Under the pieces are notes generated by a model. It ran no database searches, was not told where the DNA came from, and saw nothing but the letters and a program-made list of their open reading frames with translations. Of a stretch of DNA of 4,928 nt, positions 1 to 4,928 are shown piece by piece. Origin of the DNA: a virus. The translations under genes and the position numbers were made by a program. Position 1 is the first letter of the stretch; each line of letters opens with the position of its first letter. Where the stretch lies: the UHGV virus genome UHGV-2078699. One strand, 5' to 3'.

Positions 1-23
1 GGATTCGATTTTCGCAGCGGCCT

Positions 24-56
24 TTTCAACATAACGAGTCGTACATTATGCGCACC
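24..56 (-). other. dif-like XerC/XerD recombination site (putative prophage attachment junction), atypical spacing
   Basis: The minus strand reads GGTGCGCATAA-TGTACGACTCG-TTATGTTGAAA. The first 11 nt are identical to the XerC arm of E. coli dif (GGTGCGCATAATGTATATTATGTTAAAT, recalled from memory). The last 11 nt match the XerD arm TTATGTTAAAT at 9 of 11 positions. The two arms are separated by 11 nt rather than the canonical 6. Confidence 0.4.
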
Positions 57-94
57 AATGGTAAGGATGGCGGGAACTGGCGTTACCGGTGCCG

Positions 95-328
95 TCATTG
101 GTCACAGACCGTAATCCACTGGCCCAGGACGTCTTTCAGGCAATGTTGGCATAAATCCAGTTTTAAGCGATTACTGTCACCAAAAATTGAACCGTATCCA
201 GCTAAGTGATTAACAGACAGAAACTCATTGAACTCAATGTCATCTACCACCGTCTTCGCATGGCGACCACAGCGATCGCAGGTCTTCGCACATAACATTA
301 CAGTATCGCTGGATGTGAAAAATTGCAT
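95..328 (-). CDS. hypothetical small Cys-rich protein, zinc-ribbon-like (77 aa)
   Basis: ORF with ATG at 328..326 preceded by a strong SD (GAGGAGA, 5-nt spacer). The protein has C13-x3-C17-x2-C20 and C61-x2-C64 plus C75, i.e. two CxxC knuckles about 40 residues apart, typical of a zinc ribbon. A loose resemblance to YgiT/MqsA-type zinc-finger domains is from memory only. Confidence 0.5.
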   Translation of the reverse strand: MQFFTSSDTVMLCAKTCDRCGRHAKTVVDDIEFNEFLSVNHLAGYGSIFGDSNRLKLDLCQHCLKDVLGQWITVCDQ

Positions 329-399
329 TTTATCTCCTCGTAATGCTGCCGCGCCGAATCAGCAATAACGCTAAAAAAACAGAATTGTTCGGCTTGGCC

Positions 400-444
400 A
401 ACCCCTGACACTAACAAAAGCAAGTTTTGTCATTGTCAGGGGTT
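400..444. promoter_or_regulatory. 45-nt near-perfect inverted repeat (stem-loop) between the two small ORFs
   Basis: AACCCCTGACA (400..410) pairs with TGTCAGGGGTT (434..444), and ACAAAA (414..419) pairs with TTTTGT (425..430), around a 5-nt loop GCAAG with a 3-nt internal mismatch. On the minus strand it sits 1 nt after the ORF 446..754 stop codon. A T7 run follows about 20 nt further downstream, so it is not a canonical intrinsic terminator. Confidence 0.5.
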
Positions 445-445
445 A

Positions 446-754
446 TCATATAAACCAATAGACCGTCCTTACGCCATTCTGGTTATCAATAACATAGCCG
501 CATTGTTTCCTTAAAAATTCTTCTGCTAAATCAATGGCTTTTACAGAAATCTCATAAGAAGGAAGTAAAGTGTATCCTTTCCCTTCACTGGCAGCTGCTT
601 TGATCGCATCCAGAGTATTATCAATCAGTAACAGAGCAAGTGATGCTTCATTTACCTGAGCCGAAGAACTTCTGGCTGCAAGTGTCATTGTTTTTGCTTC
701 TTCCGCTGTAATCGTTCGTTCTGCCAGAGCAGATAAAATCCCATAAGAATCCAT
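446..754 (-). CDS. hypothetical protein (102 aa), unknown function
   Basis: ORF with ATG at 754..752 and a GGGG-containing SD 7 nt upstream. The protein is Ala/Leu-rich and helical-looking at the N-terminus with a beta-like C-terminus, and has no recognisable signal peptide or TM segment. I recognise no family. Confidence 0.45.
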   Translation of the reverse strand: MDSYGILSALAERTITAEEAKTMTLAARSSSAQVNEASLALLLIDNTLDAIKAAASEGKGYTLLPSYEISVKAIDLAEEFLRKQCGYVIDNQNGVRTVYWFI

Positions 755-774
755 TAGTTACCCCAATCAATAAT

Positions 775-834
775 GTCCATTTGATGGATAGCGAGCAGGG
801 CTTACGCACCTACCCGCTATCCATCAAAGTGGAC
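775..834. promoter_or_regulatory. long hairpin overlapping the gene IV stop codon (candidate terminator / packaging-signal-like element)
   Basis: GTCCATTTGATGGATAGCG (775..793) pairs with CGCTATCCATCAAAGTGGAC (815..834), giving a 19-bp stem with one bulged G and a 21-nt loop. The gene IV stop codon (824..826) lies inside the right arm. In Ff phages the packaging-signal hairpin begins immediately after gene IV. Confidence 0.45.
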
Positions 835-2089
835 GAATGATATGTGCTGTAAGCAAAATATACATAATACGCTGTTCATTGCTGTCTGCCTTGCTACTGA
901 AAATCCAGCCTATAAGAGGAATTTTACTTATAACTGGAACTGAACGCTCGGCATTGCTGAACGATGAATCGATAAGCCCCCCCAATAACAACGTCTGACC
1001 ATCCTTAATCTGGACTGTCGTCTGAATCTGGCGCTGATTAGTAATAATATCGGATGCCTGATCATCATTGCTGATTGAATCAGCGCGAGTGTCGATAGTC
1101 AGAACTAGTTGCCCGTTACCCATGACAACAGGCGTTACCTTGAGAGAAACGCCAACATCATGACGCTCGATAGTCTGAAACGGATTATTTACCCCGGCAG
1201 ATTCGCCCGTTACCTTTCCGGTGATAAACGGCACATTCTTACCTACGGAAATGTAACCAGTCTGACCAGACTGAGTAAGAATACGCGGCGTTGAAATCAC
1301 CTTAGAGCGTGAATTACTCTGGACAGCACGCAGAGACAGCGCCAACACGTTACCATCAAAAATACCAAAAGAACCGCCCGCCGTAGAAAGAGCGCTACCC
1401 AGTGCAGAAGTATTAAAGCCCCCCGCAACCTTATGACCGGATGCAGAACCTGCCGCAAACGATAAATCAACGCCATCAGACAAGCTGGTTTCAAACATCA
1501 GCGACTGAATGAGAACCTGATCGCGGGCAACATCCACAGAATTGATAAAATCGGACAGAACCGGCAGCAGCTCGTCAGGCGCAGAAACAATCAGCGAGTT
1601 ATTGCCTGGATAATCCACGACATTACCACCACCATTAGAATCAAGATAAATTTTAATCAGTTGCTGAACATCGGACGATCTAACTTTTGTCAGCTTAAAA
1701 TTTCTGACCGTAAGCGCCACAGGTACTGGCTGGTAAGATGGCTCAGAAGGAAAAGTATCATAAGACTGGTTATCAGAATCATCGGAATCCGAAACCATCT
1801 GTGAAGGTAATTTAGACGGCAAAGAGACTACCGCAGGATTGCCAGAAAGCATGACAAAACCGTTAGCATTCAGAACAGACTTAAAGAAATCATCAATATT
1901 TGTTGGATTAACATCAGCATTAAATACGGTTACGTTTCCTTTAATATCAGGATTAACAATAACAGGCTTGCCAGTTTTTGAAGAATACCACTGAACAAAT
2001 GAGCGAACAGATGAATTATTTAAATTAACAGTTTCAGCAGAAACGCAGAATGAATAGGCAAATAAAAAAGCAACAATAACAGAGCGCAT
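824..2089 (-). CDS. gIV: filamentous-phage gene IV protein (pIV outer-membrane secretin)
   Basis: The translation aligns along its length with M13/fd pIV as recalled, e.g. VPFITGxVTGESAxVNNPFQTIER, DGQTLLLGGL, IPLIG..FSS and a C-terminal ...RPL. The ATG at 2089..2087 is preceded by AGGAG and gives an N-terminal signal peptide MRSVIVAFLFAYSFCVSA. The 31 codons the ORF track adds upstream (to 2182) overlap the gene I 3' end and are rejected as the start. Confidence 0.92.
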   Translation of the reverse strand: MRSVIVAFLFAYSFCVSAETVNLNNSSVRSFVQWYSSKTGKPVIVNPDIKGNVTVFNADVNPTNIDDFFKSVLNANGFVMLSGNPAVVSLPSKLPSQMVSDSDDSDNQSYDTFPSEPSYQPVPVALTVRNFKLTKVRSSDVQQLIKIYLDSNGGGNVVDYPGNNSLIVSAPDELLPVLSDFINSVDVARDQVLIQSLMFETSLSDGVDLSFAAGSASGHKVAGGFNTSALGSALSTAGGSFGIFDGNVLALSLRAVQSNSRSKVISTPRILTQSGQTGYISVGKNVPFITGKVTGESAGVNNPFQTIERHDVGVSLKVTPVVMGNGQLVLTIDTRADSISNDDQASDIITNQRQIQTTVQIKDGQTLLLGGLIDSSFSNAERSVPVISKIPLIGWIFSSKADSNEQRIMYILLTAHIIRPL

Positions 2090-2096
2090 AATAATA

Positions 2097-2471
2097 TTAC
2101 TCCTGACAGGTAACAGTCTGTAAATAACGGCCTTTTCTAATAACAACACGACAGGCATCTTTAATATCAACGGAATAACCATCTTTAATCAAATCAAAAT
2201 ACTGATATTTCATACCTTTTGCATCAACAAACGTAACGGAAACGTCAAAGCCAAGTTGTGAAAAAGAATTAATAGAAAGTCGGGGTAAGTCACTGGACGA
2301 ATCAGGCGTTACCGCCCTCGCCTGTTCAGCATAAGCAGATTTAATAGCTGAGATTTCATCAACATTCTTTCCAGACTGGAGCCAGAAACCAAACGCAAGC
2401 CCCAGCGCCAAAAAAGAAAGCATTAATATAAGACGGTTCGATTTGCGAAAATAAATTTTAGTGAGGCGCAT
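2097..2471 (-). CDS. gXI: putative gene XI protein (pXI / pI*), in-frame internal start within gene I
   Basis: An in-frame ATG at 2471..2469 is codon 241 of gene I, the same residue index as the pXI start in M13 as recalled (MKLTKIY there, MRLTKIYF here). It lies just N-terminal to the TM segment, with an AGAGGA SD-like element about 12 nt upstream. Confidence 0.5.
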   Translation of the reverse strand: MRLTKIYFRKSNRLILMLSFLALGLAFGFWLQSGKNVDEISAIKSAYAEQARAVTPDSSSDLPRLSINSFSQLGFDVSVTFVDAKGMKYQYFDLIKDGYSVDIKDACRVVIRKGRYLQTVTCQE

Positions 2472-3191
2472 ATAATAATTAAATCCTCTGTGAACAGAAA
2501 ATTGACCGTGCGTGATAAATGGTGGCAAAAGCGAAAATGCGCCATGAGGATAATTATCTGTGAACGCTTGTTTGGTATTGTAAGCAGAATAAAGAGATTT
2601 TCCTGTATATATCCATTTATCAACAGTGATTGAATTAACATTATCACCATATTTGACAATGCCAAAGTGTACCTTTGGTAAAGAAAATCTCGCTCCTGAA
2701 ACCAAATTCATAATGGAGCCAACAAAAGGAATGTTTAATTTATCTGAACGGCGACAATAAACAACATGCTCAGCAAGCGCCAGACGAGCTTGCTTATCCA
2801 TTATCGAAATATCCTGAATCAAAAATATAATATCCCAGCCTAATTTTCTGGCATGTAAAAACCAGTCAATAACAGGTTGTCTGTCTTTATCACCCCATGA
2901 GCGGGAATTAAACCAAGTACCACATTCATCAAGTACAAGGAGGCCATTACGGGATTCATCGTAAGATGTATTCCCAATACCAATAGCAAGTAAATCATTT
3001 AATGAAGGCTTGTCAGGAATGCGAATAACGCGCGTTTTTTTCGCATAACGCCCAACCATAGGCATATTATGCAATTTAAGATCAAGATTAGTGGCAACAG
3101 GACAACCCTTAGCAAGTCTTTCCTGTATTCTGGAAACACTAACAAGTGTCTTGCCTGAGCCTAATTTGCCTGTTACTACATAAACCGCCAT
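2097..3191 (-). CDS. gI: filamentous-phage gene I protein (pI assembly ATPase, Zot-like)
   Basis: N-terminus MAVYVVTGKLGSGKTLVSV with Walker A GKLGSGKT and Walker B-like LLVLDECGTWF. Roughly 70% identity by eye to M13 pI as recalled (IDWFLHARKLGWDIIFL, ALAEHVVYCRR). A single TM segment LILMLSFLALGLAFGFWL lies near residue 255. The ATG at 3191..3189 directly follows the gene VI stop (TAAATG), with SD AGGGTGA. Confidence 0.95.
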   Translation of the reverse strand: MAVYVVTGKLGSGKTLVSVSRIQERLAKGCPVATNLDLKLHNMPMVGRYAKKTRVIRIPDKPSLNDLLAIGIGNTSYDESRNGLLVLDECGTWFNSRSWGDKDRQPVIDWFLHARKLGWDIIFLIQDISIMDKQARLALAEHVVYCRRSDKLNIPFVGSIMNLVSGARFSLPKVHFGIVKYGDNVNSITVDKWIYTGKSLYSAYNTKQAFTDNYPHGAFSLLPPFITHGQFSVHRGFNYYMRLTKIYFRKSNRLILMLSFLALGLAFGFWLQSGKNVDEISAIKSAYAEQARAVTPDSSSDLPRLSINSFSQLGFDVSVTFVDAKGMKYQYFDLIKDGYSVDIKDACRVVIRKGRYLQTVTCQE

Positions 3192-3533
3192 TTAAATCAC
3201 CCTGTTTGCATAATCAAGAAATTTTTGTTTTAAATCGAAAACAAAAACACTGATACGAGTAACCATAATAACGTTAACACACGCCTGAAAATGGTCAGGC
3301 AGTACAGACGCCATTAAATGGGAGAAATCAGCAGGTAAACCGTTGTACATGACCTCAGCAAGGTACTGCATTAAAAGCGTAACAGTTGTTGTAATTAATG
3401 CGACCAATGCAAAGGCGATTAATCCTGTTCTGGTAGCAAGTCGAGCTAAAAAACTCGCCACATAGCCAATAAACAAAGGAACAAGACCAATAAGAAAACG
3501 CAACAATGCAGGAATACCTAATAATAAAGGCAT
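3192..3533 (-). CDS. gVI: filamentous-phage gene VI protein (pVI minor coat protein)
   Basis: 113-aa hydrophobic protein MPLLLGIPALLRFL...FVFDLKQK, matching M13 pVI (MPVLLGIPLLLRFL...IFIFDVKQK, recalled). The ATG at 3533..3531 shares one nucleotide with the gene III stop (TGATG). The ORF track starts one codon earlier at a GTG, which I do not favour. Confidence 0.88.
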   Translation of the reverse strand: MPLLLGIPALLRFLIGLVPLFIGYVASFLARLATRTGLIAFALVALITTTVTLLMQYLAEVMYNGLPADFSHLMASVLPDHFQACVNVIMVTRISVFVFDLKQKFLDYANRVI

Positions 3534-4067
3534 CACTCACCCCCTTTGCGAAGCAATGAAGTTAAAGAAGTAAAGACATACCAGAACGTAAGGCAATAAA
3601 AAACCCATGAAAGAACATCTTTAATAGTCAGTAATTTATCGCAACCAATATCAATCTGATAAACCTCTCCGGGAAAAATAATAAAATCAGAGCAGCCGTT
3701 ACCATTGGGTAAATTAGGCAGCATAGCACCTTTATTTAAAAATGCTTCCCATAAAGCACCGTGAGAATCCTTTTCAATTCCCAATTCAGAATCAGCTAAA
3801 GTAGAAGCGCCATCTAATTCAGAGTCGCCCTTTCCATAACGAGAATCACCACCTGAAGGGTCAGCAAAACGGCCAGCCCCCCGCGTAAGATTGTTAATGG
3901 AATCGTCAAGACGATTTATATTATTCCTGGTTTGTTCATCGGCATTTTTTTTATCATCTGATGAAGTGTCTTTCTCCGTTAATTTATCATGAATATCGCT
4001 GGCTATTTTGGGTGAAGCACCTTCGATCGCAGACTGAATATCACCTTTAGAAAGACTGGAACCACTA
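3533..4067 (-). pseudogene. gIII: gene III (pIII) C-terminal fragment, interrupted by IS630 insertion
   Basis: The C-terminal roughly 175 codons resemble the pIII linker and C-terminal domain (NGNG, IDIGCDK vs M13 SIDCDK, hydrophobic anchor YVFTSL, terminal LLRKGGE vs ILRNKES). Upstream of about 4068 the frame continues into antisense IS630 sequence and the N1/N2 receptor-binding domains are absent. The 5' boundary is approximate, about 5 nt either way. Confidence 0.8.
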
Positions 4068-4928
4068 AATAGCTGCGCGGAATAGTAGATCACTGAAAGG
4101 GAACTCAGCCCGGATTGTGCGATCTGATCAATCGCCAAACCAACCAAAATCACCAACCGGACTGAGCGATGCCGATCATAGTACCAATACCCCGTGGCGA
4201 ACGACGCCTGATGCAGAAAGCTATTCATAAAACGCGTGATAAAAATCATGCCCGCAGACTCACGGCCATGCTGATGCTTCATCGGGGTGAACGGGTCAGC
4301 GATGTTGCCAGAACTCTCTGTTGTGCCCGTTCATCCGTTGGTCGCTGGATTAACTGGTTTACGCACTCAGGTATTGAAGGCCTGAAATCCTTACCCGCAG
4401 GGCGCTCCCGACGCTGGCCTTTTGAACATATCTGCACCCTGTTACGTGAGCTGATAAAGCATTCTCCCGGCGATTTTGGTTATCAACGTTCACGCTGGAG
4501 CACCGAATTACTGGCAATAAAAATCAATGAGATAACCGGTTGCCAGTTACATGCAGGAACCGTTCGCCGCTGGTTGCCATCTGCGGGGCTTGTATGGCGC
4601 AGGGCCGCGCCAACTCTGCGTATCCGTGACCCACATAAAGATGAAAAGATGGCGGTAATCCACAAAGCGCTGGATGAATGCAGCGCAGAGCATCCGGTAT
4701 TTTATGAAGATGAAGTGGATATCCACCTTAATCCTAAAATCGGTGCGGACTGGCAGTTGCGCGGACAGCAGAAACGGGTAGTGACGCCGGGGCAGAACGA
4801 AAAATACTATCTGGCCGGCGCACTGCACAGTGGCACGGGTAAAGTCAGCTACGTGGGCGGCAACAGCAAAAGTTCAGCGCTGTTTATCGCTCTGCTGAAG
4901 CACCTGAAAGCCACTTACCGGCGGGCGA
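4068..4928 (+). mobile_element. IS630-family insertion sequence, left end and most of transposase (partial; continues beyond window)
   Basis: The sequence encodes a transposase matching IS630 as I recall it. GC content rises sharply relative to the AT-rich phage genes (sampled 60-nt lines are about 33% GC in gene IV and about 70% in the transposase). The left boundary is placed after a CTA at 4065..4067, consistent with IS630 inserting at CTAG with TA duplication. The exact inverted-repeat end is not verified. Confidence 0.8.
4169..4928 (+). CDS. IS630-family transposase (Tc1/mariner-like DDE), 3' truncated by the window edge
   Basis: Plus-strand frame open from the ATG at 4169 to the end of the window (253 codons): MPIIVPIPRGERRLMQKAIHKTRDKNHARRLTAMLMLHRGERVSDVARTLCCARSSVGRWINWF (N-terminal HTH) ... 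DPHKDEKMAVIHKALDECSAEHPVFYEDEVDIHLNPKIGADWQLRGQQKRVVTPGQNEKYYLAGALHSGTGKVSYVGG. It is missing from the supplied ORF track, presumably because no stop codon falls inside the window. Confidence 0.9.
   Translation, partial: MPIIVPIPRGERRLMQKAIHKTRDKNHARRLTAMLMLHRGERVSDVARTLCCARSSVGRWINWFTHSGIEGLKSLPAGRSRRWPFEHICTLLRELIKHSPGDFGYQRSRWSTELLAIKINEITGCQLHAGTVRRWLPSAGLVWRRAAPTLRIRDPHKDEKMAVIHKALDECSAEHPVFYEDEVDIHLNPKIGADWQLRGQQKRVVTPGQNEKYYLAGALHSGTGKVSYVGGNSKSSALFIALLKHLKATYRRA

What the first reader, a model, noticed from the sequence alone, without database searches (positions are those of the whole stretch)
95..754. Uncharacterised two-gene cargo cassette between gene IV and the putative att site
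In Ff phages gene IV is followed by a non-coding intergenic region. Here two small ORFs with good ribosome-binding sites (102 aa, then a 77-aa zinc-ribbon-like protein) occupy that space, separated by a 45-nt hairpin and followed by a dif-like site. This is the position, distal to the assembly genes and next to att, where CTXphi carries ctxAB, so it is a natural moron slot. I recognise neither protein family. A small protein followed by a zinc-ribbon protein is loosely reminiscent of toxin-antitoxin or superinfection-exclusion modules, but the 117-bp structured spacer argues against a classical tightly coupled toxin-antitoxin pair.
Basis: partly seen in the sequence, partly recalled or inferred. 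Interest (0 to 1): 0.7.

Follow-up and report, generated by a model that had tools for sequence, protein, structure and literature searches.

The report
Known UPφ phage genes h1, h2
The two small genes after gene IV are real and conserved, but they are the already published, still uncharacterised "h1" and "h2" genes of the UPφ filamentous prophages of E. coli, and they behave as two independent accessory genes rather than a coupled pair.

Summary
On the minus strand, gene IV (824-2089) is followed by a 102-aa ORF (446-754), a 117-nt spacer with a 45-nt hairpin (400-444), a 77-aa CxxC…CxxC ORF (95-328) and a dif-like site (24-56).

The window is a UPφ-type, IKe-related, dif-integrating inovirus of E. 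coli. The two ORFs are its published genes h1 and h2 (Shapiro & Putonti 2020), which that paper already compared by position with ctxAB. The core of the finding is therefore already known; the function is not.

What this analysis adds:
- Both genes are under purifying selection (dN/dS 0.11-0.16).
- They are separable, and neither matches a toxin-antitoxin or defence model, so a toxin-antitoxin pair is unlikely.
- h1 is a lineage-restricted ORFan.
- h2 is not UPφ-specific. It belongs to a large, unnamed family of acidic zinc-ribbon proteins (over 2000 clusters). Members are the last gene next to dif in at least five enterobacterial inovirus lineages, and also occur on small plasmids, near Tn7-like transposition genes and in defence islands, with no fixed partner.
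- The hairpin after gene IV is the homologue of IKe's morphogenetic signal.
- The "structured spacer" is a conserved cis element found only in phages with the same gene II type.

The most likely function, a protein-binding accessory role for the mobile element, is inferred and not shown.

The parts
824..2089 (-). Gene IV (secretin); gives the context for the finding.
   Evidence: Pfam Secretin E 6.6e-43, plus GspD N0 and Secretin_N domains. The RefSeq CDS in the identical locus L001 is 12824-14089. The 5' part is about 80% identical at nucleotide level to gene IV of IKe.
775..834 (-). Long hairpin overlapping the gene IV stop codon. It is the homologue of the stem-loop annotated in IKe as a possible terminator and morphogenetic (packaging) signal.
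   Evidence: Inverted repeat at 780-828. DNA fold -24.5 kcal/mol, z = -8.8. The core CGGGTAGGTGCG..AGCCCTGC.CG is identical to IKe 6141-6196, annotated 'stem loop structure pot. transcription termination, morphogenetic signal'. Two compensatory arm changes occur in L071.
446..754 (-). ORF102, which is h1 of UPφ: an acidic 11-kDa cytoplasmic protein and a lineage-restricted ORFan.
   Evidence: RefSeq CDS WP_000378924. phrog_4115 E 2e-68, function unknown. An exhaustive HMMER search of 1.84 billion representative proteins gave only 7 hits, six of them its own lineage. dN/dS 0.16. pI 4.7. AF2 model pLDDT 76, with no convincing fold match.
342..447 (-). Conserved non-coding element: the 45-nt hairpin (400-444) plus a tail of about 60 nt. 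It is a candidate origin of replication or a promoter/leader for the last-gene slot.
   Evidence: It is 87-88% identical in UPφ, the Phytobacter phage L004 and the CUS-1-like phage L093, although the flanking ORFs differ. Those three share the gene II/V module. Phages with another gene II type either lack the element (L073) or keep only the hairpin (L071). No sigma-70 promoter or intrinsic terminator was found.
95..328 (-). ORF77, which is h2 of UPφ: an acidic 8.7-kDa zinc-ribbon or treble-clef-like protein of a large unnamed family with the motif C-x2-C…GYGSxFGDG…C-x2-C.
   Evidence: RefSeq CDS WP_001159442. phrog_5435 E 4.5e-46. 60 loci in genome representatives. 2077 clusters at E<1e-5. Invariant C17, C20, G44, G46, S47, F49, G50, D51, C60, and C63 nearly so. 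dN/dS 0.11. Family core median pI 4.7.
24..56 (-). Phage-side dif-like site, one arm of a CTXφ-type folded attP. Its inverted partner lies just outside the window.
   Evidence: GGTGCGCATAATGTACGACTCGTTATGTTGAAA at 24-56(-). The partner GGTTCGCACAATGACGTTATGCTAAAG lies about 35 nt further on in the identical loci and in the circular form L094. True dif (28/28) is found 39 nt after the ORF77 stop at array ends (L003, L004, L063-66).

Best explanation
Identity (shown). The window is one defective copy of a UPφ-type inovirus, with IKe-like structural genes, a YpfΦ-like gene II/V module and integration at dif. ORF102 and ORF77 are its genes h1 and h2. The minus-strand order is: gene IV, packaging-signal/terminator hairpin, h1, a conserved 106-nt hairpin-plus-tail element, h2, attP. 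The two genes therefore sit between the cis-acting elements of what is a purely non-coding intergenic region in IKe and Ff.

Gene status (shown). Both are real protein-coding genes under purifying selection. They are two independent modules, not a functional pair. h1 is a lineage-restricted ORFan whose allele has been swapped by recombination. h2 is a single-gene cassette that has been gained and lost in the attP-proximal slot of several unrelated inoviruses. It also travels on plasmids, other phages, Tn7-like transposons and genomic or defence islands.

Mechanism (inferred). Both proteins are small, cytoplasmic and acidic, with no catalytic signature and no fixed partner gene. h2 most likely folds around one zinc ion held by four cysteines and displays the invariant GYGSxFGDG loop. 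It would then act by binding and modulating another protein, such as a host or rival-element factor (for example anti-defence or inter-element competition), which benefits persistence of the mobile element. h1 probably does something comparable but specific to the UPφ lineage. Expression is presumably by read-through from gene IV or from the conserved element.
For: Identity:
- The first 900 nt of the window (positions 1-900) are 99-100% identical to 49 E. coli genomes, including ECONIH2, which the UPφ paper uses as a case study.
- That paper describes h1 and h2 in the region that is intergenic in IKe, I2-2 and M13.
- A 7,938-bp circular Salmonella record carries the whole phage with gene IV, h1, h2 and attP.

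Coding: dN/dS 0.11 and 0.16; PHROG matches.

Independence of the two genes:
- L071/L072 have an h1 allele, the hairpin, then about 330 nt of unrelated sequence instead of h2, then att.
- L004, L008 and L073 have h2 directly after the secretin gene without h1.
- The Providencia phages have an unrelated 128-aa ORF instead of h1.
- h1 dS is 1.56, against 0.41 for the flanking genes IV and I.

h2 family and contexts:
- Family size and spread.
- Defence-island or transposon neighbours include GmrSD, CBASS, HsdR, PglZ, SIR2, AbiE-like genes and TniQ.
- No conserved neighbour was found.

Acidity.

Cis elements.
Against: - The defence-island association was not tested against a control set.
- In enterobacterial inoviruses h2 is always the gene next to attP, and both genes are 'core' in the 229 UPφ viruses of the 2020 paper. 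That would also fit a phage life-cycle role.
- No promoter was found for either gene, so expression is assumed, not shown.
Confidence: 0.55

Rival explanations
1. h1 and/or h2 are phage life-cycle factors rather than cargo. Examples would be an accessory factor for XerCD recombination at attP/dif (XafT-like), or a factor acting on the adjacent origin-like element or packaging signal.
For: - h2 is the gene immediately next to attP/dif (39-40 nt) in UPφ and in the Phytobacter phage L004, and is the last gene of the rightward operon in at least five enterobacterial inovirus lineages.
- The non-integrating relatives IKe and I2-2 lack dif, h1 and h2 together.
- Both genes flank conserved cis elements.
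- Both are reported as shared by all 229 UPφ viruses.
Against: - Phages with the same attP (94% identical) and the same gene II/V module lack h2. L093 is CUS-1-like with unrelated ORFs, and L071, L091 and L092 also lack it.
- Most family members are not near any dif-like site, nor in inoviruses.
- Neither protein matches DUF3653/XafT or any recombinase or replication family.
- Both proteins are acidic, which does not suit DNA binding.
Confidence: 0.2
2. The pair is a toxin-antitoxin, abortive-infection or superinfection-exclusion module in which the two proteins work together.
For: - Two small adjacent co-oriented genes next to an att site.
- The UPφ paper states, without giving data, that they probably interact.
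- Some distant h2 homologues sit beside Xre/MbcA-type antitoxin genes, and one carries a weak HigA-like C-terminal match (E 1.7e-4, below the Pfam cut-off).
Against: - The genes are separable in nature.
- The 117-nt spacer is an independently conserved element.
- There are no significant Pfam, NCBIfam or PADLOC hits.
- h2 has no conserved neighbour in 59 loci.
- h1 has no relatives outside the lineage, whereas h2 has thousands.
Confidence: 0.07
3. They are lysogenic-conversion or virulence factors acting on the animal host, in the way ctxAB does in CTXφ.
For: The position is analogous to ctxAB. UPφ is enriched in urinary and extra-intestinal E. coli according to the 2020 paper.
Against: - On reading the translated sequences, neither N-terminus shows the hydrophobic stretch expected of a signal peptide or membrane segment (no prediction tool was run); both are small acidic proteins.
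- h2 relatives are common in environmental Betaproteobacteria, Thermotogota, Dehalococcoidia and other non-pathogens.
- Neither matches a toxin family.
Confidence: 0.03

Closest known systems
h1 and h2 of UPφ viruses (UPφ901; Shapiro & Putonti 2020, Virus Evolution, PMC7307601)
   Same: They appear to be the same genes, although the published h1/h2 sequences were not compared directly. The first 900 nt of the window (positions 1-900) are 99.2% identical to the UPφ prophages of E. coli ECONIH2 used in that paper. The position is the same, between gene IV and dif, in a region that is intergenic in IKe, I2-2 and M13. The status, 'unknown function', is the same, as is the positional analogy to ctxAB.
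   Different: The paper reports homologues only in UPφ-related prophages and suggests that the two genes interact. Here h2 has over 2000 relatives across many phyla and kinds of mobile element, and h1 and h2 are found apart.
YPO2280a / YPO2281 of YpfΦ and their CUS-1 homologues (Derbise & Carniel 2014, PMC4266046)
   Same: Two small ORFs of unknown function between the secretin gene and attR of a dif-integrated enterobacterial inovirus. They are preceded by the same conserved 106-nt element and followed by the same attP type. The phages share the gene II/V module.
   Different: The proteins are not homologous. The CUS-1-like locus L093 encodes an unrelated 82-aa ORF and an unrelated ORF of about 64 aa. 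I assumed L093 is of the YpfΦ/CUS-1 type from its gene order; the Y. pestis sequence itself was not available.
ctxAB of CTXφ and rstC of RS1 (cargo or antirepressor genes at the att-proximal end of Vibrio inoviruses)
   Same: Position in the genome, and a CTXφ-like attP made of two inverted dif-like sites.
   Different: There is no sequence relationship and no visible secretion signal. h2 is widespread in non-pathogens.
Small zinc-finger inhibitor or sensor domains (YacG gyrase inhibitor, MqsA N-terminal domain, zf-PARP, HNH treble clef)

Membership tests
UPφ viruses, genes h1/h2 | Near-identity to UPφ prophages integrated at dif in E. coli (for example strain ECONIH2) | tested here: met
   Window 1-900 is 99.2% identical over 100% of its length to ECONIH2 CP014667, and 99-100% identical to 49 genomes. 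ECONIH2 is named as carrying a UPφ triple tandem.
UPφ viruses, genes h1/h2 | Two ORFs between gene IV and dif, in a phage with IKe-like structural genes and YpfΦ-like genes II and V | tested here: met
   Gene order in L001, L002 and L094. Gene IV is about 80% identical at nucleotide level to IKe over a 189-nt 5' segment. Genes II and V are 80.5% identical at nucleotide level to the CUS-1-like locus L093.
Type II toxin-antitoxin module | The two genes are inherited together as a unit | tested here: not met
   h1 occurs without h2 (L071/L072). h2 occurs without h1 (L004, L008, L073, plasmids and more than 50 other loci).
Type II toxin-antitoxin module | Tight translational or transcriptional coupling (short or overlapping junction) | tested here: not met
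   The gap is 117 nt and is occupied by an independently conserved hairpin-plus-tail element.
Type II toxin-antitoxin module | Match to a known toxin or antitoxin family | tested here: not met
   Pfam, NCBIfam and PADLOC give no hit above threshold.
YpfΦ/CUS-1 YPO2280a-YPO2281 | Protein homology | tested here: not met
   The post-secretin ORFs of the CUS-1-like locus L093 show no similarity on reading their translations, and tblastn with h1 and h2 (run before L093 was fetched) found relatives only in UPφ-type loci. The 2020 paper reports under 20% identity for all genes except II and V. The Y. pestis sequence itself was not examined.
Xer activation factor (XafT, DUF3653) | DUF3653/HTH domain | tested here: not met
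   No Pfam hit.
Xer activation factor (XafT, DUF3653) | Presence correlates with the att site it serves | tested here: not met
   The same attP (94% identical) occurs in phages without h2. Most h2 homologues have no dif-like site within 10 kb.
YacG-type zinc-finger gyrase inhibitor | Profile similarity to YacG | tested here: not met
   hhalign probability 0.3%, with 12 aligned columns covering only the first CxxC.
HNH / His-Me finger nuclease | Conserved catalytic His (and Asn) between the two CxxC knuckles | tested here: not met
   The invariant columns are C, C, G, G, S, F, G, D, C. No invariant His or Asn appears in 46 sequences.
zf-PARP-like zinc finger | Fold match | tested here: inconclusive
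Ff/IKe morphogenetic (packaging) signal, for the hairpin at 775-834 | Imperfect hairpin straddling the end of gene IV, with sequence homology to the annotated IKe element | tested here: met
   Alignment to IKe 6141-6196 with an identical core; z = -8.8. Packaging activity cannot be tested here.

The most novel reading that the evidence does not exclude
h2 may be the inovirus representative of a previously undescribed, very widespread family of small acidic zinc-binding proteins (C-x2-C…GYGSxFGDG…C-x2-C, over 2000 clusters). The family is carried as a stand-alone gene by phages, plasmids, transposons and defence islands. It could be a new class of protein inhibitor, for example an anti-defence factor or an inter-element competition factor. 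Separately, the 106-nt hairpin-plus-tail element between h1 and h2 could be the origin of replication recognised by the YpfΦ/UPφ-type gene II protein.
Probability: 0.2. Interest if true: 0.6.

Novelty: already known. Interest (0 to 1): 0.3.

Why it matters
UPφ prophages sit in the dif site of a few percent of sequenced E. coli (49 to 178 of 5426 complete genomes here). They are common in urinary isolates, and their only unexplained conserved genes are h1 and h2. Three results narrow the experiments worth doing:
- h2 is one member of a large cargo family of mobile elements.
- The two genes are independent.
- The neighbouring hairpins are cis-acting phage elements, not part of a gene cassette.

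The sensible next work is single-gene knock-outs, a partner pull-down for h2, and an origin test for the 106-nt element. The results also correct the published impression that h2 has no relatives outside UPφ.

Tried and rejected
- **CUS-1/YpfΦ identification.** I first took the phage for CUS-1/YpfΦ and the ORFs for YPO2280a/YPO2281. I rejected this after reading the UPφ paper and inspecting a CUS-1-like locus whose ORFs are unrelated.
- **Curated libraries.** Pfam, NCBIfam and PADLOC scans of both proteins gave only sub-threshold noise. Pfam on eight diverse h2 homologues, including fused forms, gave nothing above threshold; the best was a weak HigA-like tail in one of them.
- **PDB sequence search.** A profile search with the 46-sequence h2 alignment returned only C2H2 zinc-finger noise.
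- **YacG hypothesis.** This came from a shared C-x4-LGxW spacing that I recalled from memory. hhalign rejected it.
- **Conserved partner for h2.** All-against-all clustering of neighbours in 59 loci found only shadow ORFs. Pfam on the 150 nearest neighbours found no family in more than 5.
- **dif/Xer linkage outside Enterobacterales.** No dif-like sites lie near the non-enterobacterial homologues.
- **Providencia 128-aa ORF against h1.** No relationship (hhalign probability 3%).
- **Rfam.** The first 900 nt gave only spurious miRNA-like hits on the hairpin.
- **Promoter and terminator scan.** None found.
- **Literature.** Searches for the PHROG or WP identifiers, and for inovirus zinc-ribbon accessory genes, returned no papers.
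- **GenBank phages.** A tblastn of h2 against the phage collection found no match.

Full report
**1. What is in the window**

All phage genes are on the minus strand. In that direction the order is:
- a truncated gene III (3533 to about 4065);
- gene VI (3192-3536);
- gene I (2097-3191; Zot, E 6e-41);
- gene IV (824-2089; Secretin, E 7e-43);
- a 102-aa ORF (446-754);
- a 117-nt spacer (329-445);
- a 77-aa ORF (95-328) with cysteines at 17, 20, 60 and 63;
- a dif-like site (24-56).

The spacer contains a 20+20-nt inverted repeat at 400-444. It folds much better than shuffled sequence, with z = -5.5 as RNA and z = -6.6 for the hairpin as DNA. ORF77 has a GAGGAG Shine-Dalgarno sequence 5 nt from its ATG. 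ORF102 has a GGGG run 7 nt upstream.

**2. Which phage this is**

- The first 900 nt are 99-100% identical, over their full length, to 49 of 5426 complete E. coli genomes. Partial matches occur in 178 genomes.
- In these genomes the element forms tandem arrays next to hipBA, at the dif locus.
- One of the hits is strain ECONIH2, which Shapiro & Putonti (2020, PMC7307601) use as a case study of their "UPφ" viruses.
[quoted passage not shown] The genes are named h1 and h2.
- The paper also notes that this is the region where CTXφ carries the cholera toxin genes.
- ORF102 is h1 and ORF77 is h2.
- A 7,938-bp circular Salmonella "plasmid" (NZ_CP140410.1) carries the whole phage genome and looks like its replicative form. 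It has gene IV, h1, h2 and attP, followed by opposite-strand accessory genes and gene II.

I first mistook the phage for CUS-1/YpfΦ, whose YPO2280a and YPO2281 occupy the same position. A CUS-1-like E. coli prophage (L093) shows that those ORFs are unrelated proteins. This agrees with the under-20% identity reported for all genes except II and V.

**3. Are they genes?**

Yes.
- RefSeq annotates both, and both match PHROG families of unknown function (E 2e-68 and 4.5e-46).
- ORF77 against its 79%-identical Phytobacter homologue gives dN/dS = 0.11.
- ORF102 against the 61%-identical Salmonella-type allele gives dN/dS = 0.16.
- In that second comparison dS is 1.56 for h1 but only about 0.41 for the flanking genes IV and I. 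The h1 allele was therefore exchanged by recombination and did not simply evolve faster.

**4. The two genes are independent modules**

- L071/L072 is a UPφ-like backbone with genes I and IV 94-96% identical. It has the diverged h1 allele and the hairpin, then about 330 nt of unrelated sequence where h2 should be, and then homology resumes at att.
- Conversely, h2 homologues follow the secretin gene directly, without h1, in a Phytobacter inovirus (L004), a Klebsiella michiganensis inovirus (L008) and a Salmonella inovirus (L073/L074).
- In Providencia inoviruses an unrelated 128-aa ORF takes the place of h1.
- Close E. coli relatives of the Salmonella phage lack h2 altogether.
- Neither protein matches Pfam, NCBIfam or PADLOC models.

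This, together with the nature of the spacer described in section 7, makes a toxin-antitoxin pair unlikely.

**5. h1 (ORF102)**

- A filter-free HMMER search of 1.84 billion representative proteins found only seven hits. Six belong to its own lineage, and the seventh is a weak match to a repeat protein (E 1.6e-6).
- The AF2 model (pLDDT 76) has three helices followed by an alpha-beta-alpha-beta-beta unit.
- The protein is acidic (pI 4.7) and has no visible signal peptide or membrane segment.
- I cannot assign it a fold family.

**6. h2 (ORF77)**

Contrary to the 2020 paper, h2 has many relatives.
- A pattern scan of one genome per species returned 60 loci. They come from Enterobacterales, many Betaproteobacteria, Deltaproteobacteria, Bacteroidales, Thermotogota, Dehalococcoidia and even bins assigned to archaea.
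- A profile search found 2077 clusters at E<1e-5. All of the 120 best hits that were listed are "hypothetical" or unnamed, and none has a Pfam domain.
- The invariant residues are C17, C20, G44, G46, S47, F49, G50, D51 and C60. D18, E35, Y45, D58, Q61 and C63 are conserved in at least 90% of sequences. The signature is thus C-x2-C…GYGSxFGDG…C-x2-C.
- The family core is uniformly acidic (median pI 4.7, range 4.2-5.7).
- The AF2 model was poor (pLDDT 59). It shows a beta-hairpin carrying the GYGS loop and a helix that starts at the second CxxC.
- A PDB sequence-profile search and an hhalign test against YacG were negative.
- No His or Asn is conserved, so it is not an HNH nuclease.

**Contexts of h2**

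- In Enterobacterales it is the last gene of the rightward operon in at least five inovirus lineages with different replication genes: UPφ, L004, L008, L073 and the Providencia phages L081-84. A further Zot-containing viral contig, L103, also carries it. The Providencia phages are the exception to 'last gene': there a 70-aa DUF2158 ORF follows h2.
- Where measured (UPφ and the Phytobacter phage L004), its stop codon lies about 40 nt from dif or attP.
- It also occurs on 7-13-kb Proteus and Providencia plasmids, beside SIR2-family or AbiE-like genes.
- On Klebsiella plasmids it is present as a decayed phage fragment.
- In about 37 viral contigs, the Zot and secretin profiles I built from enterobacterial phages found no inovirus gene.
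- In Betaproteobacteria it sits in islands with GmrSD, CBASS, HsdR, PglZ, SNase, SRAP, UmuDC and integrases.
- Among the 150 nearest neighbours in 50 non-enterobacterial loci, the commonest families were TniQ (5), Xre-type HTH domains (5 and 4), integrase (3) and Xre/MbcA antitoxin domains (3). No family recurs as a partner.
- Some homologues carry C-terminal extensions or fusions.

Taken together, h2 looks like a stand-alone cargo gene of mobile elements.

**7. The non-coding elements around the genes**

*Hairpin after gene IV (775-834).* This hairpin overlaps the gene IV stop codon. It aligns with the IKe stem-loop annotated as "pot. transcription termination, morphogenetic signal", and the core of the two is identical. 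It shows two compensatory arm changes in L071 and has z = -8.8.

*The 106-nt element (342-447).* It comprises the 45-nt hairpin plus a tail.
- It is 87-88% identical in UPφ, L004 and the CUS-1-like L093, although the ORFs on either side differ.
- Between UPφ and L093 the only other conserved segments of note are attP (94%) and genes II and V (80.5%), apart from one short 87-nt match (81%).
- Phages with a different gene II keep only the hairpin (L071) or lack the element (L073).
- I infer a cis-acting element inherited with the replication and integration backbone. It could be an origin, or the promoter or leader of the last-gene slot. No sigma-70 promoter or intrinsic terminator was detected.

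*attP.* The site at 24-56 and an inverted partner about 35 nt beyond the start of the window form a CTXφ-type attP. Because the window shows the phage-type site and not true dif, this copy is probably followed by another copy in a tandem array, although the window's own downstream flank is not available.

**8. How it most likely works**

*Shown:* identity, coding status, independence of the two genes, the distribution of h2, and the conservation of the cis elements.

*Inferred:* h1 and h2 are accessory genes that were inserted between the packaging signal, an origin-like element and attP of an ancestral intergenic region. h2 is a zinc-stabilised, acidic protein. It most probably acts by binding another protein, for example as an anti-defence or competition factor that helps the element persist. 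h1 is a counterpart specific to this lineage.

*Main rival:* a life-cycle role, for example in Xer recombination or at the origin. The strict attP-proximal position in inoviruses favours it. Against it, phages with the same attP and the same gene II manage without h2.

A toxin-antitoxin pair and a ctxAB-like secreted toxin are both unlikely.

**9. Verdict**

Interest is low to moderate. The useful additions are the unexpectedly large h2 family, the separability of h1 and h2, and the reinterpretation of the hairpins as phage cis elements.

Noticed in passing
window 775-834 (-): A 60-nt hairpin overlaps the gene IV stop codon. It is homologous to the stem-loop annotated in IKe as a terminator and morphogenetic signal, and it shows compensatory arm changes in a related phage (L071). 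h1 and h2 therefore lie downstream of the probable packaging signal.
   Followed up: yes
window 342-447 (-); L094 1643-1748; L004 6152-6259; L093 9428-9531: A 106-nt non-coding element (hairpin plus tail) is conserved at 87-88% between phages that share the gene II/V module but have different ORFs on both sides. It is a candidate origin of replication, or a promoter/leader for the last-gene slot.
   Followed up: partly
window 1-56; L094 2036-2125: attP is of the CTXφ type, with two inverted dif-like sites about 35 nt apart around a small hairpin. Only one site (24-56) is inside the window. Because it is the phage-type site and not true dif, this copy is probably followed by another copy in a tandem array.
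   Followed up: partly
window ~4065-4928: Gene III is truncated. Its 5' half is replaced by foreign DNA that includes an IS630-family transposase fragment (HTH_32, HTH_33, DDE_3) running off the window on the plus strand. This prophage copy is defective for the attachment protein.
   Followed up: partly
L094 2138-2872; L001 10885-11956; L002 1679-3373: The accessory region on the opposite strand, on the other side of attP, is highly variable between UPφ copies. It carries a Fic/Doc-family toxin in the Salmonella circular form, a PD-(D/E)XK nuclease plus DUF6953 in strain 1368KP, and an HTH protein with others in F11. That side looks like the more active cargo slot.
   Followed up: no
L003 (JARKOR010000214.1): A contig binned as 'Candidatus Nanosynbacter' carries a copy of genes VI to h2 of this E. 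coli prophage that is 100% identical at protein level, together with the E. coli dif site. This almost certainly reflects a mis-binned or contaminating contig.
   Followed up: no
L014, L017, L018, L023, L024, L027, L028 (C-terminal tails); L015, L016, L019, L026, L029, L032-37, L045; L022, L030, L031, L036: Betaproteobacterial h2 homologues carry recurrent C-terminal additions. These are a short 'HGGEFP' motif in a tail, a 'DDPFDPxHK…AYQxYQ' extension, or a 150-aa fused domain in Polaromonas-type loci that has no Pfam match.
   Followed up: no
L006, L007, L095 (7-kb Proteus/Providencia plasmids): Small plasmids share a backbone of a rep gene, a cer-like Xer site and the h2 homologue, but carry different defence-like cargo (a SIR2-family protein in one, AbiE-like genes in another).
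   Followed up: no
L070 7421-7615; L066 4536-5254: Some UPφ copies in viral contigs have internal deletions. One fuses gene IV to the middle of h1, and another removes the middle of gene IV. Decayed copies are therefore common.
   Followed up: no
window 2097-2182: The longest ORF for gene IV (824-2182) would overlap gene I by 86 nt. RefSeq instead starts gene IV at 2089, just downstream of the gene I stop (2097-2099).
   Followed up: no
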